Notes under the pieces: model-generated
The model's input: the letters and a program-made list of their open reading frames with translations, nothing else
What the model was told of the DNA's origin: nothing
Database searches by the model: none
Program-made: the position numbers and the translations under genes
Shown here: piece after piece, positions 342-55,424 of the stretch
Position numbering within the stretch: position 1 is the first letter of the stretch
How the letters are laid out: the number at the start of each line of letters is the position of its first letter
DNA from: Candidatus Poribacteria bacterium
GTDB taxonomy: Bacteria; Poribacteria; WGA-4E; WGA-3G
Assembly (NCBI GenBank): GCA_965237835.1
Contig: OZ250160.1
Span: forward strand, 2,530,146 to 2,594,145
Direction of reading: 5' to 3'
DNA length: 64,000 bases

Positions 342-569
342 GTTGTTTTGCTCCTTTCAATAGGTAGCAATTTATACCCAATTAACCCGATTTGTAGCGC
401 GAGGTCCCCGACGAATACCGGACGCGTATTCGGCGTTGATTTGGTGTCTCGCAACGGTGTACTATATCAAAAGACTTCTAATCAAGTTGATTTGGTATTA
501 GGTTAAAGCAAATAACTATAGGCTTTTGGAAAGGATACCATTTTTCCACATATATCGCAACATTCCTCA

Positions 570-1665: not shown

Positions 1666-2050
1666 AAATATATTGCCTGTATAAGAAATCTCAATACTTC
1701 TACTCATGTATTGATTCATATCGCGAAAAACAGATTGACATTTGCCGAAAAATCTGTTAAAATTCACTACACAAAAACAGATGATACTAAATTAACTTGA
1801 TATTCTGCTATAGTGAGTATACCGAGGCACAGAGACCTCACAATACAAATCAGGTTAATATATAACAGTACCTATCCATTTCTTTTGATTTACTGAGTTT
1901 GTAGTCCTGCAGTTAATTGTGTAAAATTTATCTTACTACTGTAGAATATTGAAACCAACTATGTGTAAAAGTGTATAAATAAATAATTATTGATTTTGCC
2001 ATAGTTAAAAATAAATTTAACCTAATAAAAATAATTTAAAGGGTAATCTG

Positions 2051-13292: not shown

Positions 13293-13330
13293 ACAGGTAA
13301 CTTTGCGGTTACCTGTCTTCTCTTTTTATC
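13293..13330 (+). terminator. Rho-independent terminator after Y1 (copies follow Y2 and Y3)
   Basis: acaggtaac-tttgc-ggttacctgt followed by cttctctttttat. Confidence 0.6.
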
Positions 13331-13338
13331 AGAAAAAG

Positions 13339-13367
13339 TTGACATGTAACATGTATACGCGTATATT
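13339..13367 (+). promoter_or_regulatory. Near-consensus sigma-70 promoter upstream of the WD40 gene
   Basis: TTGACA, 17-nt spacer, TATATT. Identical in the duplicated intergenic segments at 16919 and about 21437. Confidence 0.5.
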
Positions 13368-13544: not shown

Positions 13545-13643
13545 ATCCGAGATTTAGACAGAACCTTTGACATTTAATCCAACACATAGTAGAATAAACA
13601 CAACGTTAATTGGTATTAGAACAGCACATAGGAGAACACACCC

Positions 13644-14753: not shown

Positions 14754-14935
14754 TACGACCGCGCTGCGGTCTGTTGTAAAATGCCAATTTTCTGTTAGCG
14801 GAATTGTCCCTTAAATCTATCTATAAGAGAAAACTCTCATAGAATAATAGCATCTGTTTGCAAGCATTCCTATCTGGTTTTGTGAATTAAATTCTAAACG
14901 TCCCTGTTAATTTCTACTTGGTAAGGAGAAAAATC

Positions 14936-16051: not shown

Positions 16052-16065
16052 AATGAAACTGTCCA

Positions 16066-16836: not shown

Positions 16837-17223
16837 AAATTATGTCACATTTATCAGTATGAATAACAATAGACAGGTAACTTTGCGGTTACCTGTCTTC
16901 TCTTTTTATCAGAAAAAGTTGACATGTAACATGTATACGCGTATATTATCTGAACCAGGATTTTCAGGATTATCAGATTTTCAGGATTATAGATACTTCC
17001 TCAAATGAACAAGGACTTTGTTGAGAAATATAGATTTGAAGATAATACTAGCAGAAGATAGCCATCCATCTAAAAGCATACTAATCCTGATAATCCCATA
17101 ATCCTGTCCATCCTGGTTCAGACAATCCGAGATTTAGACAGAACCTTTGACATTTAATCCAACACATAGTAGAATAAACACAACGTTAATTGGTATTAGA
17201 ACAGCACATAGGAGAACACACCC

Positions 17224-18333
17224 ATGAGAAACAGATTGTTTTCAATTTTTACAGCACTGTTTGTAGCACTCCCATTTATGACCTGCAGTCTCCCATCAGG
17301 TTCATTGGAGGATCCGCTGCATGATCCACAGCAAGCCCCGCAGCAAGAGCATTTACCCGAAGGCGCGAAAGGGCGCATCAAGAAAGACAGGATCAATGAT
17401 ATAGCGTATTCACCAGACGGCACGAAGCTCGCGGTGGCAGGTGGTAGCGGTATTTGGCTCTATGATGCACAGACAGGTCATGAACTTGTCCAATTCGCAG
17501 GACATACCGGTAAAGTCCACAACGTGGCATTTAGTCCGGATGGAAAGACTATCGTAAGTGCCGGTACCAGTTACGATCGGACCATTCGTATATGGGATGT
17601 GAACACGGGAAGAAACCTACGAACATTCAAGTATCAGGTCTTTGACGTTGCGTTTAGTCCGGATGGAAAGACGATCATAAGTGGCAGTCATGACAAAAAC
17701 CTCTACTTATTGGATGCGGACACAGGTAAACTCCTACGCACCCTCTCTGGGCATACGGATTTTGTCTGGTACGTGGCGTTTAGTCCGGACGGAAAAACTA
17801 TCGCAAGTCGCAGTCAGGACAAGACCATTTGTCTGTGGGATGCGGACATAGGTAAACTCCTACAAACAATCACATGGCATTCGCATCTGCCCAAGCATCC
17901 TCACAAGCATCCTCTCAATACCGTAATTTTTAGTCCTGATGGAAAGATGATCGCAAGTGTTGGTGATGACCAGACTATTTGGCTGTGGGATGTGAACACG
18001 GGAAAACAACTACGAACAATCGCAAGAAACACGTCTCCTTATCGTAAGAACTTGGCATTTAGTCCGGATGGAAGCATGATTGCATGTAACAATTGGAAGG
18101 ATATTGATCTGTGGGATGTGAACACGGGAAAACAACTACGAACACTCACAGGGTATCGGGAGAATAACCCATCGCATCGGGACCGGTTCAGCGGACATAT
18201 TTTAGGAAACCCCAGCATCTTTACGGTGGTGTTTAGTCCGGATGGAAAGACTATCGCAGGTGCCAATAGGCGTGGCGTCCATCTGTGGGATGTGAACACG
18301 GGGTACCTCCGAAAACTCATCAGTGGTTTTTGA
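17224..18333 (+). CDS. WD40 repeat lipoprotein-like protein (WD40-2), near-identical to WD40-1
   Basis: 369 aa with only a few substitutions relative to 13644-14753. The upstream 387 bp is identical to 13257-13643. Confidence 0.85.
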
Positions 18334-18351
18334 TACGACCGCGCTGCGGTA

Positions 18352-18579
18352 TTAGGTATTTAGAACAGCACAAAAGGAGAACACACCCATGAAAAATAGC
18401 ACGAAACCAACTTTGTTGACATTTCCAACGCAAACCCTCCTCTTTGAGCCATTCCCAGATCGTTGAATCAGAAGATGAATACCCGTTTTCTCTGTAAACG
18501 CAGTTTGCAATCGTCCCAGTGTCCATACCTCAAATGGATAACCGAGACTACGCGGTTTTTGCAACGCTAAATCTATCAT
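18352..18579 (-). pseudogene. Remnant of an IS630-family transposase N-terminal HTH region
   Basis: [24 protein letters not shown]...RSGNGSKRR resembles the winged-HTH region of IS630/Tc1 transposases. Only ~75 aa remain. Confidence 0.35.
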
Positions 18580-19640
18580 ACCATATTAACTTGATTAGAA
18601 GTCTTTTGATATAGCACACGGTTGCGAGGCACGGGGACCTCGCGCTACAGATCGGGTTAATTTGGTATCAGTTGACCGCGCACCTCCGTTGAATGAATAC
18701 GCGGTTTACCGCTTTTCGGTTTATCAGCAGGTTTTCCTTTGATACCTTTTTCGTTCACGCAGCAGATATACTTGATTTGAAACCCGCTTGTTTTGCTGCT
18801 TGGGCAGCTGTCAGGGTGTTGTCATCAATCATGCTGACAATCAACCTGGCTCTCTGCACAGTCCGATAACATCTCCTCTATTTATAGCCCTCCGATCACT
18901 GTGTATTTATACCATTCTAAGTGATTATGTTGTGTTAGTTCGTAGGTTCGGTAGAGCGGTAACGAAACCATAAGTGTCAATTTAGTAGTCTTCCAACCCC
19001 GGTAGGTGCGGTTTCCTAACCGCACTATAACCGTCACCAAGTCTAACCGTAGATAAAGGGATACCACTCTCCATTGATAGAATACGAGGCTTCACTAGGT
19101 ATCTCATCACCATTAGCGAGTCCGGAAATGGGTTGGGTTAGTAAACAGACAGCTGCTAGTGCAAAAAGTATGTAGGTGCAAAAGGGGGCATGATATGAAA
19201 AAAGTTGGAAATGTTGAATGTCCACGGTTGAACGTAGGTGTGTAATTATCGGATATTTGCTATCTGGAATACGCAGGGCTGCATTTTTTGACACTGGGAA
19301 GTAATATGGGGGGGCTGGTTGTTTTGAAAAAGTCGTTGCGAGGCGTTTTTGACAGGAATTCGTTATATCGTAATGTTGGTCTGTTCAGATGTGCGATACG
19401 CGCATATGTGCAGCAGTCGCACACGTGCGCAGCACTCGGTGTTCATCTTGCCATATTATTAAAAGGTGTCAGGGATATCGTGCCCTAATATTTTATCCAT
19501 CTTTCAACGAACATTCTAACAGTATCGTTAGGGATATGTGTATTGGTTAAATTATCCATGTATATCGCCGTATAAATCAATATTATCAAAAAAATATACG
19601 ATTACATGTCGGAATTGTCCCCAAATCTACGTCATTATCA

Positions 19641-19808
19641 ATGAAGACAGTTAAAAATTTTTATAGGGAACGGTATTTAGACAATCAACCTCTCAAAGAG
19701 ATTAGTGAAAAATTGGGTATTTCTCTGACTAATGTTGAAGTATGCGTGAAACGTGTGATAAAGCAGTGGAAGAAATCCACAAGGCAAACGCCACGAAACG
19801 GAGGATAA
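19641..19808 (+). pseudogene. In-frame internal-deletion remnant of the ECF sigma gene (55-aa ORF retaining only the region-4 HTH)
   Basis: The first 7 codons (MKTVKNF) are fused to YRERYLDNQPLKEISEKLGISLTNVEVCVKRV. The upstream 140 bp is identical to 10800-10940. Confidence 0.5.
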
Positions 19809-19809
19809 T

Positions 19810-20568
19810 ATGCTTCGCGACATTTGGACAAATAAATGGTTTATCGGTGGCTTCGGTTTTCTGATTGTTTTCTCGGTGCTGTGTTACTTCTGGTACCAAC
19901 ACGATATAGCGTCATTCCAACAACAGTTATCGGCTACCGGTGATATTGTCTTTCAAGGGGATCTATCTCAAAAGGCACAAAAAACCGTTCAAACAGACGT
20001 GCCGCTGATAGAATCTCTTGAATCTGTAGAAAATAGGTCTGAATCTGTTAGGGATACGTCGGTTCCCACAGAGAAGACAACAGAAAAAACCGACACGTTT
20101 GAGATAAACACAAAATTAACTGCGGATGCTCCTACTTCTCCCTTTGGATTTGGTGCATATCCTGAAGTTCCCGCTGATTATCCGTTTCAGGAACGACTTT
20201 GGGATAACGCCACGCCAGAGCATGAGTTGTTAGTCCGAGTCGAAGTTAAGTTATGGAAACAAGGCACACAAACTAAAGGCTCTATGTTTGATACTAATAA
20301 TGGTCTCATTTATCCGACTATTCCTGGTGTCCTTTACGTGAAATGGCGTTACATTGAAGAAGGAGACCCAGATTTAGTAGGGCGAAGGTATGCCGGTAGA
20401 GTAAGCGGTGACGGAGATACTGCTAAAAAGTGGCAATCCTTATACCTTACTGACCGTATGTTTGAACGCACAGACGTAACGCATGACACTGAGGCATCAG
20501 GTATAAAGATTTATGAGTACCCAGACGGGGGTATAGACCCCTACAAATTCCTCGATTTAACGAGGTAA
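19810..20568 (+). CDS. Cassette protein X3 (TM anchor plus conserved X C-domain), near-identical to X1
   Basis: 252 aa with a handful of substitutions relative to 11714-12472. Confidence 0.7.
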   Translation: MLRDIWTNKWFIGGFGFLIVFSVLCYFWYQHDIASFQQQLSATGDIVFQGDLSQKAQKTVQTDVPLIESLESVENRSESVRDTSVPTEKTTEKTDTFEINTKLTADAPTSPFGFGAYPEVPADYPFQERLWDNATPEHELLVRVEVKLWKQGTQTKGSMFDTNNGLIYPTIPGVLYVKWRYIEEGDPDLVGRRYAGRVSGDGDTAKKWQSLYLTDRMFERTDVTHDTEASGIKIYEYPDGGIDPYKFLDLTR

Positions 20569-20578
20569 GGAAAATAAA

Positions 20579-21358
20579 ATGAAATTGTATCGTGTTCTTT
20601 TACTTTTTTTCTTTTCATGCGCTATCCTCTTCGTTGGTGCAGTTAGTGATATTTCAGCAGATGCTCAAGTTAACGGTCCCTATACTGCTGAAGCATACGT
20701 TTATCGTGTTAACACAGCTAATGTCATATTGACCGCTAAAGCTAGTAGTACGCCGCGGGCAAAAAACGGTAAGTATAAATTAGTTGCAAATAAAGATTCA
20801 GATTTAAACAGACAGGTCGAAACTTGGGATCCACTTGAAGAACAAACCCACCTGGATACACATGGTGCTCCAATTGATGGTGAATTCTCCGAAGAGCTAA
20901 AAAGAAATTATCCTTCGACAGAATACGGATACCAGGCTAAATCACTTGTTGATGGACAATTGACAGATGGAGCTTTTCGTGCTGCTTTTGCTGAAGATAA
21001 AGTGGGCGAGATACCTATTCTTGAACCCACCCCCGTCCCTCAACCACAATTGGGCATATCCCCCGTAGATCCAGATGACACTCCTTATCCCGGCGAAGCA
21101 CATGAGTACAGACTTGTCACAGAGGCACCTTATTACTATGTGAATTGGTATGTGAAGGCACCTTGGGAGACAAGTGAACGCGGATCATATATAGGGAGTG
21201 ACTCAGGTGACGGCACGACAACTGAATCTACATTCAGTTACACGTTCCCGAGCGGTGCAATGCATACTGGAGATTTTCTGATAACAGCGGTCATTTACCG
21301 GTGGTCAGATATGTCTGAGTATGAGGAGACTTATACTGCGACTGTGTCATTAGATTAA
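20579..21358 (+). CDS. Cassette protein Y3 (secreted; divergent N-domain, conserved C-domain)
   Basis: Signal peptide. N-domain only distantly similar to Y1 and Y2 (DGPYTAEAY.YRV...ASST). C-terminal ~105 aa conserved. Confidence 0.7.
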   Translation: MKLYRVLLLFFFSCAILFVGAVSDISADAQVNGPYTAEAYVYRVNTANVILTAKASSTPRAKNGKYKLVANKDSDLNRQVETWDPLEEQTHLDTHGAPIDGEFSEELKRNYPSTEYGYQAKSLVDGQLTDGAFRAAFAEDKVGEIPILEPTPVPQPQLGISPVDPDDTPYPGEAHEYRLVTEAPYYYVNWYVKAPWETSERGSYIGSDSGDGTTTESTFSYTFPSGAMHTGDFLITAVIYRWSDMSEYEETYTATVSLD

Positions 21359-21768
21359 AATTACGTCGCATTTATCATTGTGAATAACAACAGACAGGTA
21401 TCCTTGAGGTTACCTGTCTTCTCTTTTTATCAGAAAAAGTTGACATGTAACATGTATACGCGTATATTATCTGAACCAGGATTCTCAAGATTACCAGATT
21501 TTCAGGATTATAGATACTTCCTCAAATGAACAAGGACTTTGTCGAGAAATATAGATTTGAAGATAATACTAACTAGCAGAAGATAGCCATCCATCTAAAA
21601 GCATACTAATCCTGTCCATCCTGGTTCAGACAATCCGAGATTCAGACAGAACCTTTGACATTTAATCCAACATATAGTAGAATAAACGCAACATTAAAAT
21701 GATTTATATTTAGCCCGCGTCTTTCTATCCAGATAGGTATTTAGCACAGCACACAGGAGAACACACCC

Positions 21769-22917
21769 ATGAGAAACAAATTGTTTTCAATTTTGACAGC
21801 ACTGTTTGTAGCACTCCCATTTATGACCTGCAGTCTTCCGCCAGGTTCACTGGAGGAACCGCTACATGATCCACAGCAGGAACCGCAGCAGAAACCGCAG
21901 CAAGAGCATTTACCCAATGGCGTGAAAGTGCCCCCCGGGAGAGTATGGGTTATGGATGTAAAATTTTCACCCGATGGCACATGTCTCGCGGTGGCGGGTG
22001 GCATCGGCATTTTGCTTTACGATACACAGACTTATGACAAACCGGACCTACTTAAAGGGCATACGGGTTATATATGGTGCATAGCGTTTCGTCCGGATGG
22101 AAAGGTGCTCGCAAGTGCAGGTCAGGACCGGACTGTCCGTTTGTGGGATGTGAACACGAGACAACAAATCAGAACATTTGGAATAAACTTGTATCCTACG
22201 TCAAACATAACATTTAGTCCGGATGGCAAGACACTCGCAAGCGCAACTGGAGGTAATAATACGAAGGATGTTATGAACGTCTATCTATGGGATGCAGACA
22301 CAGGTAAACGCCTACGCACACTCTCTGGGCATACGAATATAGTCAACGATGTGTCGTTTCGTCCGGATGGAAATATGCTCGCAAGTGCGTGTGACGACCA
22401 AACCGTCCGTCTGTGGGATGTGGAGACGGGACAACATATCAGAACACTATCTGGGCATACGAAGATGGTCGAGAGCGTTGCATTTAGTCCGGATGGAAAT
22501 ATGCTCGTAAGTGGAGGTGGGTATCATAATGCTGTCGCTCTGTGGAATGCGAACACGGGACAACAAATCAGAGCACTCACTATCAATGCACACTTGGAAC
22601 AACAAATCAATGTCCACATGGAAAAATATAGCAGACACATAGGCGCAAAAGGGGGGAGCAAGATTAGTGGAGAAGATGTGGCGTTCAGTCCGGATGGAAA
22701 CACTATCGCAAGTACCGGTCCTTCTTCCATCCATCTGTGGGATATGGGCTCGGGACAACACCACAGAATACTCCACAACGGAAAGTATCCTGATATAGCA
22801 ACAGATGTAGCGTTCAGTCCGGATGGAAACACTATCGCGTGTGTAGGTTGGTATGAAGCACATGTGTGGGATGTGGAGACGGGAAAACTCATCCGAATAC
22901 TCATGGGCAAACATTGA
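21769..22917 (+). CDS. WD40 repeat lipoprotein-like protein (WD40-3, divergent paralog)
   Basis: Same signal and leader as the other WD40 genes. WD40 units FSPDG....LWDV. Confidence 0.85.
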   Translation: MRNKLFSILTALFVALPFMTCSLPPGSLEEPLHDPQQEPQQKPQQEHLPNGVKVPPGRVWVMDVKFSPDGTCLAVAGGIGILLYDTQTYDKPDLLKGHTGYIWCIAFRPDGKVLASAGQDRTVRLWDVNTRQQIRTFGINLYPTSNITFSPDGKTLASATGGNNTKDVMNVYLWDADTGKRLRTLSGHTNIVNDVSFRPDGNMLASACDDQTVRLWDVETGQHIRTLSGHTKMVESVAFSPDGNMLVSGGGYHNAVALWNANTGQQIRALTINAHLEQQINVHMEKYSRHIGAKGGSKISGEDVAFSPDGNTIASTGPSSIHLWDMGSGQHHRILHNGKYPDIATDVAFSPDGNTIACVGWYEAHVWDVETGKLIRILMGKH

Positions 22918-22971
22918 TACTACCGTTCTGTGGTATTAGGTATTTAGAACAGCACACAGGAGAACACACCC

Positions 22972-24075
22972 ATGAGAAACAGATTGTTTTCAATTTTCAC
23001 AGCACTGTTTATAAAACTAACATTTCTGAGCTGCAGTCTCCCACCCGGTTCATTGGAGGATCCGCTGCATGATCCACAGCAAGCCCCGCAGCAAGAGCAT
23101 TTACCCGAAGGCGCGAAAGGGCGCATCAAGAAAGACAGGATCCATGATATAGCGTATTCACCAGATGGCACGAAGCTAGCGGTGGCAGGTGGTAGCGGTA
23201 TTTGGCTCTACGATGCACAGACAGGTCATGAACTTGTCCAATTCGCAGGACATACCTATACAGTCCACAACGTGGCATTTCGTCCAGACGGAAAGACTAT
23301 CGTAAGTGCCGCTATCGGTTACGATCAGACCATTCGTATATGGGATGTGAACACGGGAAGAAACCTACGAACATTCAGGTATGTGGCCTTTGACGTCGCG
23401 TTTAGCCCGGATGGAAAGATGATCGTAAGTGGCGGTCATGACAAAAACCTCTATTTACTGGATGCGGACACAGGTAAACTCGTACGCACCCTCTCTGGGC
23501 ATACGGATTTTGTCTGGAGCGTGGCGTTTAGTCCGGATGGAAAAACTATCGCAAGTCGCAGTCAGGACAAGACCATTCGTCTGTGGGATGCGAACACAGG
23601 AAAACTCCTGCGAACACTCACAATGGATACGCATCTGCCCAAGTATTTTCTCAATATCGTAATTTTTAGTCCTGATGGAAAAGTGATCGCAAGTGTTGGT
23701 AATGACCGGACCATTTGTCTGTGGGATGCTAACACGGGAAAACGCCTACGAACAATCGCAAGAAATACGACTCCTTTTCATAAAAACTTGGCATTTAGTC
23801 CGGATGGAAGCATGATCGCATGCAACAATTGGCTCGATATTGACCTATGGGATGTGAACAACGGAAAACTCCTACGAACACTCACAGGGTATAGGGAGAA
23901 TAACCCATCGCGTCGGGAGTGGAGGAGAGGACATATTGGACTTATAGGACCCCCCGGAATCTTTACGGTGGTGTTCAGTCCGGATGGAAAGACTATCGCA
24001 GGTGCCAGTGTGCATGGCGTCCATCTGTGGGATGTGAACACGGGGTACCTCCGAAAACTCATCAGTGGTTTTTGA
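22972..24075 (+). CDS. WD40 repeat lipoprotein-like protein (WD40-4)
   Basis: Closest to WD40-1 and WD40-2. The downstream 165 bp is identical to 14754-14917. Confidence 0.85.
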   Translation: MRNRLFSIFTALFIKLTFLSCSLPPGSLEDPLHDPQQAPQQEHLPEGAKGRIKKDRIHDIAYSPDGTKLAVAGGSGIWLYDAQTGHELVQFAGHTYTVHNVAFRPDGKTIVSAAIGYDQTIRIWDVNTGRNLRTFRYVAFDVAFSPDGKMIVSGGHDKNLYLLDADTGKLVRTLSGHTDFVWSVAFSPDGKTIASRSQDKTIRLWDANTGKLLRTLTMDTHLPKYFLNIVIFSPDGKVIASVGNDRTICLWDANTGKRLRTIARNTTPFHKNLAFSPDGSMIACNNWLDIDLWDVNNGKLLRTLTGYRENNPSRREWRRGHIGLIGPPGIFTVVFSPDGKTIAGASVHGVHLWDVNTGYLRKLISGF

Positions 24076-24257
24076 TACGACCGCGCTGCGGTCTGTTGTA
24101 AAATGCCAATTTTCTGTTAGCGGAATTGTCCCTTAAATCTATCTATAAGAGAAAACTCTCATAGAATAATAGCATCTGTTTGCAAGCATTCCTATCTGGT
24201 TTTGTGAATTAAATTCTAAACGTCCCTGTTAATTTCTACTTGGTAAGGAGAAAAATC

Positions 24258-25397
24258 ATGAAATTTGTCAACTTCTGTCTGTTTACTACTTTTGTTCTTA
24301 TAACAGTAATGCAAATCGGATGTTTGTCCGGTGGTGCGATGGGTACTGCGGAAAAATTAAGTGAGACGAAAGACTATCGCGGTGCATTAGAAGTCTATCA
24401 AAATGTTGTAGATACCAAACCCGGTACTGCTGACGCGCGCGCAGCACAACTCGCAATAGGTGAACTCTACATTGAGCATATACATCAACCCGAACAAGGG
24501 ATTGAAACTTATGAAGCGGTCATTGCTGAAGCACCCACAAGCGATGAAGCTGCAGAGGCACACTATCGTCTCGGGATGCACGCCTATCGCCAAAAAGACT
24601 ATGACGCAGCGCAAACCCAATTTGGTACTATTGTTAACCAATTTTCGCATCTGGAATTGAGTCACAACGCACAACTGATGTCGGCAAAAAGTTATGAGGA
24701 CGGGCAAAAATTTGAACAAGCTGTAGAAGTTTATGATAATTTTGCGAACCGCAACCCACAGAGTAAACGCGCTGCACAAGCCCTCGCCAATAAAGCGCGA
24801 ATACAACGCAAATTCCTTAAAGATGATGATGAAGCGATACGTACCCTGCAATCATTAGTCATAAAATACGGCAAAATTAAGAGCGCAGAATCATACGTTA
24901 AAGAAGCTAAAAAAGTATTAATTGAATTCAATGTCTCTCCTTTTGGATTTGGTGCATATCCTGAAGTTCCCGCCGATTATCCATTTCAGGAGCGACTTTG
25001 GGATAATGCCACGCCAGAGCATGAGTTGTTAGTCCGAGTCGAAGTTAAGTTATGGAATCAAGGAACACGAACTAAAGGTGCAGCGTTTAGTAGTAATGGT
25101 CTCGTTTATCCCACAATTTCTGGTGTCCTTTACGTAGAATGGCGTTACATTGAAGAAGGTGACCCAGATTTAGTAGGGCAACGGTATGCGGGACGTGTAA
25201 TGGGTGACGGAGATACTGCTAAAAAGTGGCGATCTTTATACCTTACTGACCGTATGTTTGAGCGCACAGACGTAACGCATGACACTGAGGTATCAGGTAT
25301 AAAGATTTATGAGTATCCAGATGGAGGAATAGACCCCTACAAATTCCTCGATTTACCGAGGTTTGATGTTGAATTGAGAGAAGGAGGCAAAAACTAA
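24258..25397 (+). CDS. Cassette protein X4: intact TPR lipoprotein fused to the conserved X C-domain
   Basis: RBS AAGGAG 7 nt upstream of the ATG at 24258. Lipobox IGC. TPR-like repeats. C-domain SPFGFGAYPEVPADYPFQER... Confidence 0.75.
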   Translation: MKFVNFCLFTTFVLITVMQIGCLSGGAMGTAEKLSETKDYRGALEVYQNVVDTKPGTADARAAQLAIGELYIEHIHQPEQGIETYEAVIAEAPTSDEAAEAHYRLGMHAYRQKDYDAAQTQFGTIVNQFSHLELSHNAQLMSAKSYEDGQKFEQAVEVYDNFANRNPQSKRAAQALANKARIQRKFLKDDDEAIRTLQSLVIKYGKIKSAESYVKEAKKVLIEFNVSPFGFGAYPEVPADYPFQERLWDNATPEHELLVRVEVKLWNQGTRTKGAAFSSNGLVYPTISGVLYVEWRYIEEGDPDLVGQRYAGRVMGDGDTAKKWRSLYLTDRMFERTDVTHDTEVSGIKIYEYPDGGIDPYKFLDLPRFDVELREGGKN

Positions 25398-25414
25398 ACG
25401 TCTCTGAAATTACA

Positions 25415-31811: not shown

Positions 31812-32495
31812 ATGGTTGAACGGATTAAACATCGACTACGGCAAAACCGATTTTTGGCACCATTGATGGGGTGTCCTTATCCCGCACCGCGCTGGAATCG
31901 AGCTGTTAAACGTGTGATCCGAGAACTGGGACCTGACGCGCAGATTTTGGACCTGGGATCTGGAACGCATCGCCGTGCACCGAATGTGATTAATCTTGAG
32001 ATTGAAGCGACTCCGATGGTGGATGTTGTGGCGGATGGGCATTGTCTGCCGTTTGCGGATAACGTGTTTGATGCGGTTATCTCTGAGGCGGTGCTGGAGC
32101 ATGTCCGAGAACCACAGCATATTGTAGCGGAGATGTTTCGTGTGCTAAAGCCGGGTGGATATGTGTGCGCAGCGGTGCCGTTCTTGCAGGGGTATCATGC
32201 ATCTCCTCACGATTATCAAAGATGGACAGCGACAGGGTTCGTGACGTTGTTTTCTCAGTTTCGTGAGATTGAAAGCGGTGCATGTGCGGGTCCGACTGCG
32301 GCATTGCATTGGATTTTTCGGGAGTATGTCGGGCTTATATGTTCTTTTGGGAGTTTGTTGGTTGCGAAGGCTGTATCGCTTCTTGTTGGCTGGTTGACAT
32401 TTCCGTTAGTGTTGTTGGATATGTTGTTGATGTTGCATCCGCATTCGCATATTTTAGCGTCTGCGGTGTATTTCGTTGGTCAGAAAGAGACGTAA
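31812..32495 (+). CDS. Class I SAM-dependent methyltransferase (Methyltransf_11-like)
   Basis: Motif I ILDLGSGTH, motif II/III region DNVFDAVISEAVLEH...VLKPGG. Confidence 0.75.
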   Translation: MVERIKHRLRQNRFLAPLMGCPYPAPRWNRAVKRVIRELGPDAQILDLGSGTHRRAPNVINLEIEATPMVDVVADGHCLPFADNVFDAVISEAVLEHVREPQHIVAEMFRVLKPGGYVCAAVPFLQGYHASPHDYQRWTATGFVTLFSQFREIESGACAGPTAALHWIFREYVGLICSFGSLLVAKAVSLLVGWLTFPLVLLDMLLMLHPHSHILASAVYFVGQKET

Positions 32496-32499: not shown

Positions 32500-32630
32500 C
32501 TTTTATTGTAGGGGTGGGCCCCGTGCCCGCCCGTCTCCCGAAATCTGTAGGGGCGGGACCGCGTGCCCGCCCATCTCCCGAAATCTGTAGGGGCGGGACC
32601 CCGTGCCCGCCCGTTTTTGTATAATTCACA
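32500..32630. repeat. Array of three ~40-bp REP elements (GTAG plus the palindrome gggcggg...cccgccc) flanking the RAYT gene
   Basis: The unit tctGTAGgggcgggaccccgtgcccgcccgtctcccgaaa is repeated three times. Confidence 0.7.
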
Positions 32631-32634
32631 ACGT

Positions 32635-33201
32635 TTATTCTGAATGTTCCAGTTCCCATTTGCGAACATTGTTGTAGATATACTCCCGCACAGATCGCAA
32701 AGCACCATCATTTCGGATAACATGGTCATGAAACGAAATTTCCCACAATTTCTTGCTAAACCGTTGCCAACCATTTTGCTTAACACCTTGGATGTATTGG
32801 TTTGTTGTTAAGGATTTGAACCGTTCCATTAGTGTGATTAAAGAAATTGATTCTTTTGAATCTGAAGGTTGCTTTGAAGTAGACAAATCTCCTCTTTCTA
32901 TCCTATTGTATTTTGGTTTGATGATAAGAATGCCATGGAAGTGGTCGGGCATGACTTGGAAAATATCTAATTCAATCTGCGGTGAATATAGCGGCAATTC
33001 TTGCCAAGTTGTTTTTACCATGTGACCGGCATCCGTTAATACAATTTTGCCGTTTTGCAGGTGTGCAAATAGACAAAAGCGGTTCTTTGTTGTGAGTGTT
33101 ACGAAATACCATCCGGGTTGGGAATAGTCATATCCAGGGAGGCGAAGGCTTTCGGATTTGGGGTAATACATCTTTTCTTTATTTCGGATGTAGCGGGGCA
33201 C
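32635..33201 (-). CDS. REP-associated tyrosine transposase (RAYT; IS200/IS605-like Y1 HUH enzyme)
   Basis: HUH motif PDHFHGIL. C-terminal Tyr motif REYIYNN. 188 aa. GTAG-palindrome REPs on both sides. Confidence 0.7.
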   Translation of the reverse strand: MPRYIRNKEKMYYPKSESLRLPGYDYSQPGWYFVTLTTKNRFCLFAHLQNGKIVLTDAGHMVKTTWQELPLYSPQIELDIFQVMPDHFHGILIIKPKYNRIERGDLSTSKQPSDSKESISLITLMERFKSLTTNQYIQGVKQNGWQRFSKKLWEISFHDHVIRNDGALRSVREYIYNNVRKWELEHSE

Positions 33202-33258
33202 GGGGTCCCCGCGCTACGTTTCTGCGGGGCACGGGGTCCCCGCGCTACAGTTATTCCA
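33190..33258. repeat. Two REP copies (reverse orientation) on the other flank of the RAYT gene
   Basis: gcggggcacggggtccccgcgctac twice. The reverse complement is GTAGcgcggggaccccgtgccccgc. Confidence 0.65.
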
Positions 33259-33259
33259 A

Positions 33260-34504
33260 TTATTCCACCGGTTGATATTTAGCTGCATCCACAAAATAGA
33301 GGAAGCCAATGCACATTTCATCTGTGGTTTTGTCTCCCCAACCGACGGGGACAGGTGGGTCGTGCGGGTTGGCTGGGTTCTTGACAGAATTGTCAAAGTG
33401 CGCAACAAGTGAAATACGCGTGCCAGCAGGAAGGAAGATCGGTTTACGATAATGATAGATGTCTTGCCAGTTGAAATCCCAATCCTGTATCCAGATAATA
33501 TCAATCGGATCGCCTGTCGGCGGTTTCGCAATGATCCGCATATCGCGTCCGAGCAGATGCATGTGTGGCATCGTGGCTAACAGATAACTATCCTTTTTGA
33601 CTTGACGCGATGCTTTCACAGGATACTTCGCCTCTCCGGCGGGGATTACGAATTTGTCGTTGATCGCCATACCGATCTCTAAAGGCGTTGTCTCCGGCGT
33701 TTTGGAGAAGTAAAGCCCAACTCGTGATTGGTCGCGTTCCGTGTGCCCAGTGCGGTAGTAATGCACCTGTAGCACGATGTCAGCACCTTTCGGTAACAGA
33801 TACCCGACACCTTTCGGTAGAACGGAAGGTCTGAGACCGGGTGCCCATCCGCCAAGTGTTCCCGCTGAATCAATGCCTGGACCGGTACCTTGTGTGACAT
33901 ACCCGGGTTTCGGGTCTTTCGCAGCAAGTTTACGGGCTTCTTCCTTCGTATCTAAATAGACAATGACGTGATGCACTGTCCTGCGGTTGCCCGGTTGAAC
34001 ATCAACGGCTTGGACATATATGTCTGTGTCAAAGTTGGTGGGAATGATAAAGTGCCGATATTCGTCTTCACCTTCCGGTTCAATTTCGTATTCCACTGGC
34101 ATTTCAAAGATATGATCAGGTTCACCGAGTGCCCACCCATCGTGGAATTTGGGGTTCGGTGGTGTTTTTGAGAGATCGCCTGCTGGTTTCCCTGCTTCTG
34201 CCCATTTGGTGATCATCTCAATCTCTTTGTCGGTGAGTCTACGTTCGTTTTTGAATTCACCATGTCCGACTGTTGGTTTCCAAGGCGGCATCAGGCGCGC
34301 TTTGGTGTATTCAGCAATTTCGGTCGCCCATGCTTTGGCGTCTCTATAGTCAGTGAGTGCAAAGGGTGCGACTTCACCTTGACGATGGCAGGATTGACAC
34401 TGTTTCTGTAGAATCGGTGCGATGTGTTCGCTGTAGGTGACTTCTGCCCGTAGGCAGGGTGCAAGTAGTGTAAACGTGATAAGTATGATTAAGAACTTTC
34501 TCAT
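33260..34504 (-). CDS. Secreted PSCyt1 (planctomycete-type cytochrome c) domain protein fused to a DBH/PHM-like copper monooxygenase-like domain
   Basis: Signal peptide. Haem motif CQSCH within HIAPILQKQCQSCHRQGEVAPFALTDY. Candidate Cu ligands HHVIVY, H~65 aa later, HMH and a downstream Met, spaced as in copper type II monooxygenases. Confidence 0.55.
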   Translation of the reverse strand: MRKFLIILITFTLLAPCLRAEVTYSEHIAPILQKQCQSCHRQGEVAPFALTDYRDAKAWATEIAEYTKARLMPPWKPTVGHGEFKNERRLTDKEIEMITKWAEAGKPAGDLSKTPPNPKFHDGWALGEPDHIFEMPVEYEIEPEGEDEYRHFIIPTNFDTDIYVQAVDVQPGNRRTVHHVIVYLDTKEEARKLAAKDPKPGYVTQGTGPGIDSAGTLGGWAPGLRPSVLPKGVGYLLPKGADIVLQVHYYRTGHTERDQSRVGLYFSKTPETTPLEIGMAINDKFVIPAGEAKYPVKASRQVKKDSYLLATMPHMHLLGRDMRIIAKPPTGDPIDIIWIQDWDFNWQDIYHYRKPIFLPAGTRISLVAHFDNSVKNPANPHDPPVPVGWGDKTTDEMCIGFLYFVDAAKYQPVE

Positions 34505-45256: not shown

Positions 45257-45459
45257 TATCAAATGACCATTTTCCTATGGGCGCGGTTTCATGAAGATTA
45301 AGAATTTAAGTTGGGTTCAAGCTCGAATTACCTAATTTATTTTTTAATCTTCATCCAACCGTGCCCATTTTTCTAAGTAAACTTTCCATTTTTTCTTCAT
45401 AATTGAATACTTTAGAAGTTGACACGGTATTATACCAAATTAACGGGATTTGTCCTATT

Positions 45460-45760
45460 TTCCGGATGGTAAGTGCGGTTTCCGAACCGCACCTTATGCG
45501 TCAATTTAGTGGTCCCCAACCCGGCAGGAGCGGTTTCTAACCGAACCTTTTTGTATCAACATCTCAAATAACGCAAAGGACGAGAATATCAGTGTTCGTA
45601 GTCGCGCAATTCACGCGCCTCTTTTCTTTGAATGTAAGAGGCGCGTGAATTGCGCGACTACAAACGAGTTCTTTCCTTAAATTGACGCTTATGGTGCGGT
45701 TTCCTAGCCGCACTGATAGATTGGAATCAAGTTAATTTGGTATTAGTTTCCCTTTAGTTT
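45460..45760. repeat. Cluster of three REP families (A: GTAG-gtgcggtt..aaccgcac; C: GTAG-tcgcgcaattc..attgcgc; E-type tail)
   Basis: ggtaagtgcggtttccgaaccgcacc, cgtagtcgcgcaattcacgcgcc...ggcgcgtgaattgcgcgactac, ggtgcggtttcctagccgcac. Confidence 0.55.
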
Positions 45761-47669: not shown

Positions 47670-48233
47670 TATGTCATCAGCAAACCCGCTCAGAGTCCAC
47701 CCCTCTTTTGGCATCAGGATTGGTGGGGTTGGAACGACCCGTGCAGCTACACAGCATTACCCCAGCAGCTATTTTTGATGTATTATCTGGTTGACACAAC
47801 ACCATATAACGGATGCCTTCGCGTAATAAAAGGTTCGCACCTTAAGCGGCATCCACTCCATGATATATTGCCAAACGCACATGGTGCGGAACTGCAGCGT
47901 GTGGAAAATCCGAACCATCCCGTATTTCAGCATTTCCCTGATGAGGTAGACATAATCGTAAATGCTGGTGACCTCGTTATCGGTGATTCTCGCCTGTTGC
48001 ATGCCTCACACGGCAATCAATCTGATGAACACCGCACAGTCATAACGCTTTGGTATCACCCGTTTTTCGCGCTATTACCGGCAGGGATGCAAGCACATAT
48101 AGGTAGGCTTAGACAGAGTCTCGCTTGGACAGATGCAGATTGGGAACGGATTGCTGAACTTGTCCCAGTTTTTGAAGGAGATGCTGAACCTATGAAATGG
48201 AATCGAGCACCTGGACCTGAACTGACATAACAA

Positions 48234-48355
48234 CAGGGCTATTTAGTTCTCCGAATATTTAGATTTTCAATCTAAGACTTTCCGCTGTAGGAGCGATCTC
48301 CGAATCGCGACTTTTCGTCTAAAATGGACAAAAAGTCTAAAACTAAATAACCCTG
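48234..48355. mobile_element. MITE-like element family 1 (single copy) with 8-bp TSD CATAACAA
   Basis: TIRs cagggctatttagtt / aactaaataaccctg, flanked by cataacaa on both sides. Confidence 0.65.
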
Positions 48356-49399: not shown

Positions 49400-50120
49400 A
49401 CGTCACAAAGCGGTAGGTGCGGTTTCCTACACCGCACCTTATGCGTCAATTTAAGAAAAAGTCTGCGTTTGGACAAACACCTCTCAATAAGCATGAGGAC
49501 TGAGACTGTCTTATATTTAGTCCCGTAGGGACGATATGTTTATAGTACCTCGTCCCGCAAACCCATCTCTTCAGTTCCATCCGAGCGAAATGTGTATAAT
49601 GTCTTATATATAAACATTCCGCCCCTACGGGGAAACCAAAGAATTGGGGGTGCTTCCGTTGCTATAAACATTGCGTCCCTACGGGACTAAAGAGGGTTTC
49701 TCGGACACGGAAAATCACTAAATTGACGCTAATGGTGTGGTTTCCTAACCGCACCATTAGCGTCAATTTAAGGAAATAAACCTATATTTTGGATATCTTA
49801 GCCCCAGCGGGGCGGAATGTGTATAGACCACGATCCATACCAAACTCAAGCCCCAGCAGGGCGAAAGGTGTATATGGGCACATGTTGTCAGACATCTGTC
49901 ACCCCGAATCAACGCCAAATGCGCGTATGGCATTTGTCGGGGTTCAAGAGACTGTTGGACACCGTTTTCTATATACCTGTCGCACCGCTGGTGCTAAGAT
50001 GTGATTTACCAAAGCCTCGGGGGAGGCGAAAGATGTATCAGACGCACTAAATTGACGCCCATGGTGCGGTTTCCTAACCGCACCGATAGATTGGAATCCC
50101 GTTAATTTAGTATTAAACCT
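49400..50120. repeat. Mosaic REP/BIME-like cluster with hairpin+GAA(A/T)NNTGTNTA modules
   Basis: A copy of the 300-bp unit (49440-49700), followed by ccccagcggggcggaatgtgtataga, ccccagcagggcgaaaggtgtatatg, caccgctggtgctaagatgtgattta and cctcgggggaggcgaaagatgtatcag. Confidence 0.6.
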
Positions 50121-51450: not shown

Positions 51451-52269
51451 AATGTGCTCCTTAAGTATATTGTTAGTCTGGACGGAGTATATTAAGTTTG
51501 AGCAATTATATACCTAAAAGCAGATAGCGGTGTGGTGCGTCATTACCACGCGCAAATCATTCTTTGCCTTGTAGGAAATATAATACAGCACATTGTTTTT
51601 TTACATAAACGTTTGATTCGGAATTTTGGTTGACTTTAAAATTTAATTCCTTACGACACACATGTTTTCTATTTCAAATCACAAATGTAGAGGTTGAGAA
51701 TTCAACACGCAAAAATTGCATGTAACATACTATTTTTGCGTCATAATCTATAATTTTCGCGGTTCATCATACAACTTTTGCGTACCGGCAATGAGATGGA
51801 ACATTAAAGAACTTACACTTTTTAATGAAAATAATTTAATTTTAAAATATTATAGCGGTAATTTTCGATTTGATGAATCCAATGTTTACCTATGTTTAAG
51901 ACGTATAGAAGTTAGAAAACATAATTTCAACCCAATGGTTCTGACACAAAAAATGGTTCATAATAAAGTAATGGCACGAAACTTGCTTTATTATTTAGGT
52001 TTTATACCAAATTAACGCAATTTGTAGCGCGAGGTCCCCGTGCCTCGCAATGCTAACCGCTATTAGAAAACTTCTAATCAAGTTAATTTGGTATTAGTAA
52101 GTATTGTAGTCTATGTGACATTCAAAATGAACTTATTATATTAAATTTTACATAAGATATTAGGCATACACCGTGTGCCTTAACGGTGTAAGTACGCCTG
52201 TCCCTCTCCCCTTTGGGCGTGCTTACAAAAATCGCGATTTGGATAGGCGCGCTAACCAAATCGCGATTT

Positions 52270-55199: not shown

Positions 55200-55320
55200 T
55201 TGTTCTCTGTCGCGCGAGGTCCCCGTGCCTCGATCTTTGTCTGAAACGCCACACCAACCATGTCGGGGCACGGGGTCCCCGACCTACAATAAAAACAATG
55301 GTAGGTGCTGGTCCCCGTGA
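55200..55320. repeat. REP elements (RAYT-type GTAG plus GC palindromes)
   Basis: gtcgcgcgaggtccccgtgcctcga, gtcggggcacggggtccccgacctac, gtaggtgctggtccccgtga. Confidence 0.5.
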
Positions 55321-55424
55321 TTGTCTTTAGCACCAGCAGTGCGAAAGGTATATAGAATTTGAGAAAACCCTTGATATAACAGTTCCTAATCCTGAAAATC
55401 CTTGTTCAGACAAACCCGAATTTT

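What the first reader, a model, noticed from the sequence alone, without database searches (positions are those of the whole stretch)
32500..33260. Bona fide RAYT (REP-associated tyrosine transposase) flanked on both sides by tandem GTAG-palindrome REPs
A 188-aa HUH/Y1 protein (PDHFHGIL; REYIYNN) sits between three direct REP copies (GTAG plus gggcggg..cccgccc) on one side and two inverted copies on the other. This is the canonical REP-RAYT arrangement, thought to be the source of dispersed REPs. Related GTAG-plus-GC-palindrome REPs (for example GTAGcgcgaggtccccg) are scattered through the window (360-400, 18600-18660, 52010-52050, 55200-55320).
Basis: partly seen in the sequence, partly recalled or inferred. 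Interest (0 to 1): 0.6.

Follow-up and report, generated by a model that had tools for sequence, protein, structure and literature searches.

The report
REP-associated transposase with flanking hairpin arrays
A small gene for a domesticated single-strand-DNA transposase (a RAYT) sits between two short arrays of the GC-rich hairpin repeats it should recognise, a known arrangement found here in an uncultured Poribacteria-like genome, so it is real but ordinary, except that most scattered copies of the hairpin sit inside a different kind of miniature transposon.

Summary
ORF 32635-33201(-) has its conserved start at ATG 33171, giving 178 aa rather than 188. It encodes a Y1 HUH protein with H77-F-H79 and Tyr164 intact, a confident IS608/TnpAREP-like fold, and dN/dS of 0.12-0.16. 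Two GTAG-headed hairpins lie 5' of the gene (31-nt period) and three lie 3' in inverted orientation (40-nt period).

The hairpin is a 6-7 bp stem with a conserved 8-nt loop, WCCCCGTG. Compensatory stem changes support it (5 of 7 pairs; 0 of 500 shuffles reach the score).

Motifs, a variable loop after HUH and a "double-foot" REP match TnpAY1 subclass 2.4 (Bertels group 4), not the E. coli type (NCBIfam 51 bits against a cutoff of 80). The gene keeps the same chromosomal position in relatives at 72-77% identity. In a co-occurring strain the arrays grow to about 18 and 28 copies.

Four of the seven dispersed copies in the window, and nearly all of those sampled in a related Poribacteria genome, sit inside an 88-90 nt element (one disrupted copy is longer). 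That element has terminal inverted repeats and a 3-bp TNA target-site duplication, so it is a DDE-type MITE, not a RAYT product.

Verdict: a new member of a known kind, of moderate-to-low interest.

The parts
32635..33171 (-). RAYT / TnpAREP-like Y1 HUH gene, 178 aa from the conserved ATG. The maximal ORF runs to the GTG at 33201, giving 188 aa. H77-F-H79 is the HUH motif and Y164 the catalytic Tyr.
33190..33219 (-). Gene-proximal 5' REP. It is a 'double-foot' form, GTAGCGCGGGGACCCCGTGCCCCGCTAC, with GTAG at one end and CTAC at the other. It overlaps the alternative GTG start.
   Evidence: The double-foot type is described for subclass 2.4 in PMC6006769.
33221..33250 (-). Second, distal 5' REP, 31 nt from the first. 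It lies in the 58-nt gap after the stop codon of the upstream co-directional 414-aa gene.
32506..32614 (+). 3' array of three REPs with a 40-nt period (32506-32534, 32545-32574, 32585-32614), inverted relative to the 5' REPs. It lies between the convergent RAYT and methyltransferase genes.
32591..32621 (+). The last 3' REP hairpin followed by GTTTTTGT. This is an intrinsic-terminator-like site for the convergent methyltransferase gene (31812-32495, +).
   Evidence: This is a consensus match only.
52005..52093 (+). 89-nt MITE with TIR TACCAAATTAAC..GAT and TSD TTA/TTA. It carries the REP GTAGCGCGAGGTCCCCGTGCCTCGC at 52022-52051.
18579..18667 (-). 89-nt MITE of the same family, TSD TGA/TGA, carrying a REP at 18621-18650.
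375..497 (+). MITE of the same family, TSD TTA/TTA. A roughly 34-nt insertion of another small palindromic repeat interrupts its REP loop. The weak REP hit is at 392-414.
1785..1923 (+). Degenerate MITE-like remnant. Its left TIR is recognisable. Its boundaries are approximate, because the right end has no TIR/TSD match. It holds a decayed REP at 1819-1848(-).
55207..55341 (.). Cluster of three naked REPs, not inside a MITE, in alternating orientation: 55207-55236(+), 55260-55289(-) and a degenerate 55301-55341(+). The arrangement is BIME/REPIN-like. It lies in the intergenic gap after ORF 52767-55196.

Best explanation
This is a REPtron. It consists of one vertically inherited gene for a REP-associated tyrosine transposase (RAYT / TnpAREP, TnpAY1 subclass 2.4 = Bertels group 4), bracketed by inverted sets of its cognate REP hairpins. 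The host is an uncultured Poribacteria-like bacterium.

Shown here:
- The protein has an intact HUH motif and catalytic Tyr.
- It has a Y1-transposase fold.
- It is under purifying selection.
- It stays at one syntenic site across species.
- The REP is a GTAG-headed perfect hairpin. Its stem covaries, while its 8-nt loop is conserved and changes in concert on both sides of the gene in orthologous loci.
- The two flanking arrays change copy number strongly between strains.

Inferred from the biochemistry of E. coli, S. maltophilia and Marinomonas TnpAREP (PMC3479197, PMC8266576):
- The enzyme binds the folded REP on one strand of single-stranded DNA. It most likely reads the conserved loop plus the GTAG, as the perfect-palindrome group-3 systems do.
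- It cleaves at a nearby dinucleotide through a 5'-phosphotyrosine intermediate. CT immediately precedes GTAG in most array units.
- It can rejoin strands. That activity could add or remove REP units next to the gene and occasionally seed naked REPs elsewhere.

Most dispersed copies of this REP in the lineage are not explained this way. They are passengers inside an 88-90 nt MITE with a TIR and a TNA target-site duplication, which a DDE-type transposase presumably moves.
For: Protein identity.
- HUH and Tyr are invariant across 46 homologues.
- The family profile's best PDB hit is 4ER8 TnpAREP at E=4e-6, with HUH and Tyr aligned.
- The AlphaFold2 model has pLDDT 89.5. Its top Foldseek hits are IS608 and ISDra2 TnpA, plus 4ER8, which shows the highest sequence identity at 22%.
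- NCBIfam's best family is REP_Tyr_transpos at 1.2e-13.

Subclass 2.4.
- The motifs are DHFH, WE and YIYNNV in the window, against NHFH, WQ and YIxNNP in homologues.
- A variable, low-confidence loop runs from about residue 86 to 110.
- One REP is a double-foot type, and homologues carry intragenic REPs.

REP structure.
- 93.5% of cells are paired and 5 of 7 pairs show changes on both sides.
- 0 of 500 shuffles reach the covariation score, and slid controls are far lower.
- DNA folding energies are -6 to -9 kcal/mol.

Vertical inheritance and selection.
- Gene order is the same (414-aa CxxCH/Cu-monooxygenase-like protein | RAYT | SAM methyltransferase | dsrm | S21) in L001, L003, L110 (76% aa) and L112 (71% aa).
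- dN/dS is 0.12-0.16, and dS is similar to that of the neighbouring genes.

Co-evolution. The loop is ACCCCGTG on both sides in the window and TCTCCGTG on both sides in L110 and L112, while the stems differ.

Array dynamics. The window has 2 and 2.7 copies. L001 has 17.9 x 31 nt and 27.8 x 40 nt.

Association beyond this lineage. The same REP type lies next to, or inside, RAYT homologues of 36-45% identity in three other phyla.

MITE. The 3-bp flanks are identical in 26 of 33 copies (TAA, TTA or TGA). L001 holds a paralogous pair of empty and filled sites.
Against: - No activity was tested.
- The window protein departs from the subclass consensus at three conserved positions: N to D before HUH, WQ to WE in the GTAG-contact region, and NNP to NNV after the Tyr. 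Its closest orthologues share these changes.
- It scores below two curated cutoffs: NCBIfam 51.2 against 80, and Pfam Y1_Tnp 22.9 against 23.
- Neither flanking REP variant has an exact or near-exact dispersed copy in the window.
- Most dispersed relatives are MITE-borne and carry TT rather than CT before GTAG.
- Array size changes could arise from slippage or unequal recombination without the enzyme. Higher-order 70-nt blocks are present.
Confidence: 0.85

Rival explanations
1. The RAYT is domesticated or idle, and in this lineage it is not the agent that spreads REPs. On this reading the flanking arrays are relics kept for gene regulation or termination. The MITE's DDE transposase does all REP dispersal. 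The protein is conserved for some other single-strand-DNA function.
For: - The TSD and TIR structure of the REP-bearing element shows non-Y1 mobilisation.
- About 29 of 32 sampled REPs in OZ244616.1 are MITE-borne.
- REP orientation shows no bias relative to local GC skew, at 13 against 15.
- The window protein carries substitutions at conserved positions.
- The last 3' REP doubles as a terminator-like site.
Against: - Purifying selection keeps HUH and Tyr intact.
- The REP loop changes in concert on both sides of orthologous genes, which implies continuing protein-hairpin recognition.
- Naked REPs in BIME-like order exist at 55207-55341.
- The flanking arrays are highly dynamic.
- The same REP type travels with this RAYT clade across phyla.
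Confidence: 0.1
2. This is an autonomous IS200/IS605-type insertion sequence, a selfish mobile copy whose end hairpins happen to be repeated.
For: It has a Y1 HUH fold, and IS608 and ISDra2 TnpA are the top structural hits. Hairpins lie at both ends of the gene.
Against: - It sits at a fixed syntenic position across species, with dS like that of its neighbours.
- No second copy is seen in the window, and no paralogue on the same contig appears among 114 homologues.
- The Y motif is Y---NN(P/V), not the Y---Q of IS200.
- NCBIfam transpos_IS200 scores 17.9 against a cutoff of 55.
- There is no tnpB gene.
- Both ends carry the same GTAG-headed REP family in arrays, not distinct left-end and right-end hairpins.
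Confidence: 0.03
3. The repeats are an assembly artefact or a chance juxtaposition of a GC-rich tandem repeat with an unrelated small ORF.
For: The arrays are short in the window. Long arrays are hard to assemble, and the copies in L003 look degraded.
Against: - Four independent assemblies reproduce the window arrangement.
- Orthologous loci in other species carry the same architecture with covarying stems.
- 0 matches are expected by chance.
- The RAYT and this REP type co-occur in other phyla.
Confidence: 0.02

Closest known systems
TnpAY1 subclass 2.4 of Quentin et al. 2018 (PMC6006769), equal to RAYT group 4 of Bertels et al. 2017 (PMC5581495)
   Same: - The HuH, W and Y motif pattern in the family is NH[IFV]H, WQ and YIxNNP.
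- The length is about 180-195 aa.
- A variable-length insertion lies between HuH and Y.
- The GTAG REPs are long and perfect, and include the 'double-foot' form.
- REPs are inserted in frame inside the gene in homologues (L074, L075, L043, L113).
- Copy number is low.
- The distribution over many phyla is patchy.
   Different: - The window protein and its closest Poribacteria orthologues have DHFH, WE and YI(Y/H/S)NN(V/I).
- The window gene holds no intragenic REP.
- It is strictly syntenic across species, whereas the subclass is described as spread by horizontal transfer.
- The papers I read do not mention Poribacteria.
E. coli TnpAREP (RayT/YafM) REPtron, subclass 2.2 / group 2; PDB 4ER8
   Same: - It is a single-copy domesticated Y1 HUH enzyme flanked by inverted GTAG-headed REPs.
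- HUH and Tyr align, as do several GTAG-contact residues: W94, H101 and R104 match, and E100 aligns to a conservative Asp (D149).
- It is the best sequence-profile hit among solved structures.
   Different: - The window protein reaches only 51 bits against the 80-bit equivalog cutoff.
- E. coli REPs are imperfect palindromes with a bulge, arranged as REPIN/BIME pairs. Here the hairpins are perfect, with a conserved 8-nt loop, arranged as head-to-tail arrays.
- Q95 is replaced by E.
Group 3 / subclass 2.5 REPtrons (Stenotrophomonas, Marinomonas, Pseudomonas), PMC8266576 and PMC2817692
   Same: - The REPs are perfect palindromes in which specific loop positions are essential for recognition.
- E100 is replaced by D.
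- RAYT and REP co-evolve.
- Rayt genes are often next to repeat arrays.
   Different: - The protein subclass differs: the Y motif there is YI[VI]ANP and there is no variable insertion.
- Those REPs are shorter.
- Those genomes hold hundreds of naked REPs or REPINs rather than MITE-borne ones.
IS200/IS605 TnpA (IS608, ISDra2)
   Same: It shares the fold and the HUH/Tyr chemistry, recognises subterminal DNA hairpins on single-stranded DNA, and has a tetranucleotide 5' of the hairpin in the position of the guide sequence.
   Different: Those are multicopy mobile insertion sequences with distinct left and right ends, a Y---Q motif and often a tnpB gene. None of these features is found here.
Bacterial MITEs mobilised by DDE transposases with 3-bp TNA duplications (IS5-family subgroups; PIF/Harbinger-like). 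This comparison rests on my own knowledge and was not tested.
   Same: The REP-bearing 88-90 nt element has 18-20 nt TIRs, a 3-bp TNA target-site duplication, tandem insertions that share a TSD, and variants with other cargo.
   Different: It carries a RAYT-type GTAG hairpin as internal cargo. No autonomous partner with these TIRs was found in the DNA available.

Membership tests
RAYT / TnpAREP (class 2 TnpAY1) | HUH metal-binding motif | tested here: met
   H77-F-H79. H77 is invariant and H79 is at least 90% conserved in 46 homologues. It aligns to PEHMH of 4ER8.
RAYT / TnpAREP (class 2 TnpAY1) | Catalytic Tyr in the motif Y---NP | tested here: met
   Y164 is invariant and aligns to the DYIYINP Tyr of 4ER8. 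In the window the motif reads YIYNNV, with the final P replaced by V, as in its nearest orthologues.
RAYT / TnpAREP (class 2 TnpAY1) | Y1 HUH transposase fold | tested here: met
   AlphaFold2 pLDDT 89.5. The 30 best Foldseek PDB hits are all IS608, ISDra2, IS200 or TnpAREP chains, with E from 1e-6 to 1e-4.
RAYT / TnpAREP (class 2 TnpAY1) | Gene flanked by REPs in inverted orientation | tested here: met
   Two REPs lie 5' on the coding strand and three lie 3' on the other strand. Orthologous loci show the same arrangement.
RAYT / TnpAREP (class 2 TnpAY1) | REP is a GT[AG]G tetranucleotide at the foot of a stable hairpin | tested here: met
   GTAG lies 1 nt before a 6-7 bp GC stem. Covariation holds in 5 of 7 pairs.
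RAYT / TnpAREP (class 2 TnpAY1) | The same REP family is dispersed in many intergenic copies in the host genome | tested here: inconclusive
   The window holds 7 further copies in 64 kb. A truncated scan found at least 32 in a related Poribacteria chromosome. However, the full 5.93-Mb genome could not be scanned, the exact flanking variants are not dispersed, and most dispersed copies are MITE cargo.
RAYT / TnpAREP (class 2 TnpAY1) | Single or low copy number with vertical inheritance | tested here: met
   There is one copy in the window. No paralogue on the same contig appears among 114 homologues. Synteny is conserved down to 71% aa identity, with dS like the neighbours. The whole-genome copy number was not verified directly.
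RAYT / TnpAREP (class 2 TnpAY1) | Strand-specific binding, cleavage and rejoining of single-stranded REP DNA | not testable with these tools
   This needs a biochemical assay.
NCBIfam NF047646 REP_Tyr_transpos (equivalog of the E. coli-type RayT) | Score at or above the curated cutoff of 80 bits | tested here: not met
   The score is 51.2 bits, E=1.2e-13. It is related to that family but is not an equivalog.
Pfam PF01797 Y1_Tnp | Score at or above the gathering cutoff of 23 bits | tested here: not met
   The score is 22.9 bits, which is borderline. Many orthologues carry a precomputed PF01797 hit.
TnpAY1 subclass 2.4 / Bertels group 4 | Motif set NH[IFV]H, WQ and YIxNNP | tested here: inconclusive
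   The family consensus of the 46 homologues matches (MPNHFHG, LWQR, YIxNNP). The window protein has DHFH, WE and YIYNNV (table). No phylogeny with reference members was run.
TnpAY1 subclass 2.4 / Bertels group 4 | Variable-length insertion between HuH and Y (beta3 to alphaC) | tested here: met
   Alignment columns after HUH vary from 0 to about 70 residues. Residues of about 86-110 have pLDDT of 62-69 and no secondary structure.
TnpAY1 subclass 2.4 / Bertels group 4 | REPs that are long, 'double foot', or inserted in frame inside the gene | tested here: met
   A double-foot REP lies at 33190-33217. Intragenic in-frame REPs occur in homologues L074, L075, L043 and L113, but not in the window gene.
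IS200/IS605 TnpA (subclass 1.1) | Y---Q motif, multicopy near-identical insertion sequences, and the NCBIfam transpos_IS200 cutoff of 55 bits | tested here: not met
   The motif is YIYNN. The gene sits at a single syntenic locus. The NCBIfam score is 17.9 bits.

The most novel reading that the evidence does not exclude
A hairpin that is the cognate substrate of a domesticated Y1 (HUH) transposase has been captured as cargo by a DDE-type TIR/TSD MITE. That MITE now carries most copies of the hairpin through Poribacteria genomes. On this reading the single-copy RAYT is kept because it acts on these MITE-borne hairpins and on its own hyper-variable flanking arrays. That would functionally couple two unrelated transposition chemistries, and the arrays (2 to 18 and 3 to 28 units between co-occurring strains) would be a natural read-out of RAYT activity.
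Probability: 0.15. Interest if true: 0.6.

Novelty: new member of a known kind. Interest (0 to 1): 0.33.

Why it matters
It extends the REPtron arrangement of subclass 2.4 / group 4 RAYTs to an uncultured Poribacteria-like lineage. None of the papers I read or searched mentions REPs in Poribacteria.

Group 4 was described mainly as patchy and horizontally spread. Here the gene is strictly syntenic, under purifying selection, and co-evolving with its hairpin. That is the "domesticated" behaviour previously stressed for groups 2 and 3.

The practical lesson for REP censuses is that counting GTAG palindromes overstates RAYT-driven spread when the hairpin rides inside a MITE.

The strain-to-strain array expansions offer a simple natural system for asking whether a RAYT amplifies REPs next to its own gene.

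None of this overturns current understanding.

Tried and rejected
- A single-sequence phmmer search against the PDB found nothing relevant. A 46-sequence profile was needed.
It did not include the window's own genome, so a genome-wide census and a RAYT copy count were not possible.
- Rfam found no family in the window at gathering thresholds.
- The search for an autonomous IS with the MITE's TIRs failed. None of the ten window ORFs scanned with Pfam, including those next to the MITEs, is a transposase. TIR pairs 1.5-2.3 kb apart in L019, L032 and L048 enclose ordinary genes (ParA-like, HEPN, ferredoxin, alanine-racemase-like) and are chance pairs.
- REP strand bias was tested against local GC skew in 18 loci of OZ244616.1. 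The GTAG strand matched the G-rich strand 13 times and the C-rich strand 15 times. This shows no bias, but 8-kb skew is noisy. The window holds too few copies to test.
- A CRISPR-like array was considered and rejected, because the "spacers" between units are identical.
- I briefly treated REPs inside the RAYT ORF of homologues as new. This feature is already described for subclass 2.4.
- Tandem head-to-tail REP arrays are also already described.
Full report
**What is in the sequence**

The window has 43% G+C. Between a SAM methyltransferase gene (31812-32495, +) and a 414-aa CxxCH/Cu-monooxygenase-like gene (33260-34504, -) lies ORF 32635-33201 on the minus strand.

All orthologues start at the ATG at 33171 (MYYPKS...), so the product is most likely 178 aa.

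Downstream of the gene are three direct repeat units with a 40-nt period, at 32506-32614 on the + strand. Upstream are two units with a 31-nt period, at 33190-33250 on the - strand. The upstream units are inverted relative to the downstream ones.

With up to three mismatches, the 25-nt upstream unit has 5 matches in the window against 0.00 expected from shuffles. Four independent assemblies hold the same arrangement.

**The protein**

- Pfam gives only a borderline Y1_Tnp hit, 22.9 bits against a cutoff of 23.
- NCBIfam's best family is REP_Tyr_transpos at 1.2e-13, but at 51 bits against an equivalog cutoff of 80. IS200 scores 17.9 against 55.
- In an alignment of 46 homologues, Y16, G20, Y22, T25, P75, H77, K119, W143, Y164, I165 and N168 are invariant, and H79 is at least 90% conserved.
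- A profile of that alignment finds E. coli TnpAREP (4ER8) as the best solved structure at E=4e-6. The HUH and the YIxxNP tyrosine are aligned.
- An AlphaFold2 model (pLDDT 89.5, pTM 0.83) matches only Y1 HUH transposases at the top of a PDB fold search: IS608, ISDra2, IS200 and 4ER8. The highest sequence identity, 22%, is to 4ER8.
- Residues of about 86-110, just after the HUH strand, have low confidence and are length-variable in the family.

**The hairpin**

The unit is GTAG, one nucleotide, a 6-7 bp G+C stem, an 8-nt loop WCCCCGTG, then the return stem.

I aligned 24 variants taken from the window, sister strains, orthologous loci and other phyla. On this alignment 93.5% of cells pair and 5 of 7 pairs have changes on both sides. 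No shuffle out of 500 reaches the covariation score, and slid controls drop to 39-55% paired. As single-stranded DNA the units fold at -6 to -9 kcal/mol.

The gene-proximal unit reads GTAG...CTAC. This is the "double foot" form that Quentin et al. describe for subclass 2.4.

**Which kind of RAYT**

Quentin et al. 2018 (PMC6006769) define TnpAY1 subclass 2.4 (Bertels group 4) by these features:
- the motifs NH[IFV]H, WQ and YIxNNP;
- a median length of 194 aa;
- a variable insertion between HuH and Y;
- REPs that are long, double-footed or inserted in frame in the gene.

The family consensus here matches that description. The window protein and its nearest orthologues have DHFH, WE and YI(Y/H/S)NN(V/I).

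In-frame REPs inside the gene occur in homologues from a Neomarinimicrobiota MAG (L074), Sedimenticola (L075), Ca. Electrothrix (L043) and another Poribacteria-like genome (L113). They do not occur in the window gene. I first took this as new. It is already published.

The protein is therefore a RAYT in the broad sense, best placed in subclass 2.4. It is not an equivalog of the E. coli enzyme.

**Evolutionary behaviour**

The organism is probably a member of Ca. Poribacteria. The REP pattern and several other repeats recur in the Poribacteria chromosome OZ244616.1, and some homologues are annotated as Poribacteria.

The gene keeps the same neighbours in two strains (L001, L003) and in two more distant genomes (L110 at 76% aa, L112 at 71% aa). 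The order is 414-aa protein | RAYT | methyltransferase | dsrm | S21.

Against L110 and L112, dN/dS is 0.16 and 0.12, and dS (0.93, 1.48) is in the range of the neighbouring genes. This is a vertically inherited gene under selection, not a moving IS.

In those orthologous loci the stems differ. The loop is TCTCCGTG on both sides of the gene, against ACCCCGTG on both sides here. A concerted loop change with free stem covariation is what loop-specific recognition predicts. Such recognition was shown experimentally for the perfect-palindrome REPs of group 3 (PMC8266576). For this protein it is an inference.

**Array dynamics**

A strain from the same metagenome (L001, 98% aa) has 17.9 units of 31 nt upstream and 27.8 units of 40 nt downstream, against 2 and 2.7 in the window. 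L003 has intermediate, partly degraded arrays.

Unit variants are interspersed, and the upstream array contains a 70-nt higher-order block. Unequal recombination or slippage therefore contributed. An enzymatic contribution is possible but unproven. Head-to-tail REP arrays as such are known (PMC3733652).

**The dispersed copies**

A covariance model finds 12 copies in the window. Five flank the gene, four are strong dispersed hits and three are weak. All are intergenic.

The copies in 375-497, 18579-18667 and 52005-52093 are not free REPs. Nor are about 29 of 32 copies in loci sampled from OZ244616.1. They occupy the same position inside an 88-90 nt element; the disrupted copy at 375-497 is longer. 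The element reads TACCNAATTAACNNGAT - TT - REP - about 28 nt - ATCNNGTTAATTNGGTA. A fourth, degenerate remnant at 1785-1923 holds the decayed copy at 1819-1848.

The three bases outside the two ends are identical in 26 of 33 copies (TAA, TTA or TGA). The rare TGA is matched by TGA in three of its four copies, including the window's. Left and right frequencies alone would give about 38% matches.

L001 contains a paralogous pair of sites reading CTC-TTA-CAC and CTC-TTA-[element]-TTA-[element]-TTA-CAC. Terminal inverted repeats plus a 3-bp target-site duplication are hallmarks of DDE-type transposition. Y1 HUH transposition produces neither (established knowledge of IS200/IS605).

The same TIRs bound elements with other cargo (window 45433-45742 and 7088; L110 8090-8178). 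I found no transposase with these ends in the DNA available.

Only the cluster at 55207-55341 consists of naked REPs in alternating orientation. Neither exact flanking variant is dispersed in the window.

The implied link to this RAYT as their source is not supported for most of them.

**Wider distribution**

The collection scan returned the nearly identical sequence GTAGGGGC(A/G)GGTCCCCGTGCC(T/C)GCCC from MAGs and genomes of many phyla. In 68 of 91 hits outside this lineage the 3' half, which the pattern did not specify, completes the hairpin. In three of them a RAYT homologue lies within the 8-kb locus. This fits the patchy, horizontally spread picture of subclass 2.4.

**Mechanism, with the status of each step**

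Shown:
- intact catalytic residues;
- the Y1 HUH fold;
- purifying selection;
- inverted cognate hairpins;
- hairpin covariation;
- concerted loop change;
- variable arrays;
- MITE carriage of the hairpin.

Inferred from characterised TnpAREP enzymes (PMC3479197, PMC8266576):
- strand-specific binding of the folded REP on single-stranded DNA;
- cleavage near the hairpin through Tyr164 (a CT immediately precedes GTAG in most array units);
- strand rejoining that can add or delete units.

Not shown:
- any activity;
- any role in dispersal.

**Verdict**

The finding is real and correctly named. It is a new member of a known kind, with a caveat about what actually spreads the hairpin in this lineage.

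Noticed in passing
window 52005-52093, 18579-18667, 375-497; L008-L091 (OZ244616.1), L001 5492-5670, L049, L083: An 88-90 nt MITE has TIR TACCNAATTAAC..GAT and a 3-bp TNA target-site duplication, identical on both sides in 26 of 33 copies. It carries a RAYT-type GTAG hairpin as cargo. It also occurs in 91-nt tandem arrays that share TSDs (L048, L072, L023). As single-stranded DNA it folds with z = -6.9.
   Followed up: yes
L001 2438-3009 and 3588-4698 (sister strain, same metagenome): At the orthologous locus the RAYT-flanking arrays are expanded to 17.9 x 31 nt and 27.8 x 40 nt, against 2 and 2.7 units in the window. A gene caller turned the 40-nt array into a spurious 441-aa ORF (L001 3543-4868).
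   Followed up: yes
window 32635-33171 compared with L001 and L003: Among close strains the RAYT gene is the most conserved stretch of the locus. It differs at 5 of 537 nt against L001 and 0 of 537 against L003, while neighbouring genes differ by 3.7-7.3% and 1.1-1.7%. dS is 0.018 against 0.11-0.25. Across species, though, it is among the faster-evolving proteins. This suggests a recent exchange or sweep of the cassette between the REP arrays.
   Followed up: partly
window 45433-45742, 7088-7260, about 50048-50115; L008 310-567; L110 8090-8178: The same MITE TIRs, with a TTA duplication at 45433-45742, enclose other cargo. Examples are a 310-nt element with GGTGCGGTTTCCTAACCGCACC hairpins plus a long GTAGTCGCGCAATTCACGCGCC...CTAC palindrome, and in L110 a different GTAG hairpin (GTAGGCGCGC-TTTGTCC-GCGCGC).
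   Followed up: partly
window 570-831 and 48225-48355; L001 5400-5480: Further families of GTAG-tagged palindromes exist. One is a 131-nt unit, tandem at 570-831, bounded by the inverted repeats GCAGGGCTATTTAG/CTAAATAGCCCTGC and containing GTAGGAGCGATCTCCGAATCGC. Another is a tandem GTAGTCGCGCAATTTATTGCGCC unit. The intergenic regions of this genome are packed with modular small repeats.
   Followed up: no
window 409-442, 30766 region, 49919 region; L032 3293: A small palindromic repeat of about 34 nt (ACGAATRCC..ACGCG..ATTYGGCGTTGATTYGG) follows CCCCG at each site. At 409-442 it interrupts the loop of the REP inside the MITE at 375-497.
   Followed up: partly
L074 4437-4961, L075 1896-2417, L043 3587-4078, L113 4001-4729: In RAYT homologues from other lineages, REP hairpins are inserted in frame just after the HUH motif (for example ..VGTGPRACP.., and AGHGDPAKQ four times). 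This is already described for subclass 2.4. The L113 protein (P0019) has HFY in place of HUH and may be inactive.
   Followed up: partly
L006-L109 (genome-contig scan): A nearly identical REP, GTAGGGGC(A/G)GGTCCCCGTGCC(T/C)GCCC, occurs in genomes of many phyla, including Armatimonadota, Nitrospirota, Chloroflexota, Cyanobacteria, Acidobacteriota, Planctomycetota and Desulfobacterota. In 68 of 91 hits the unspecified 3' half completes the hairpin.
   Followed up: partly
window 32591-32621 (+): The last 3' REP plus GTTTTTGT matches an intrinsic-terminator pattern for the convergent methyltransferase gene.
   Followed up: no
window about 10800-25400: There are three to four tandem paralogous cassettes. 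The unit is about 3.58 kb: two ORFs of roughly 252 and 257 aa with no Pfam hit, plus a 369-aa WD40 beta-propeller protein. Their promoter-proximal intergenic segments are 87-100% identical. A sigma-70 region-2 ORF precedes them at 10941-11396.
   Followed up: no
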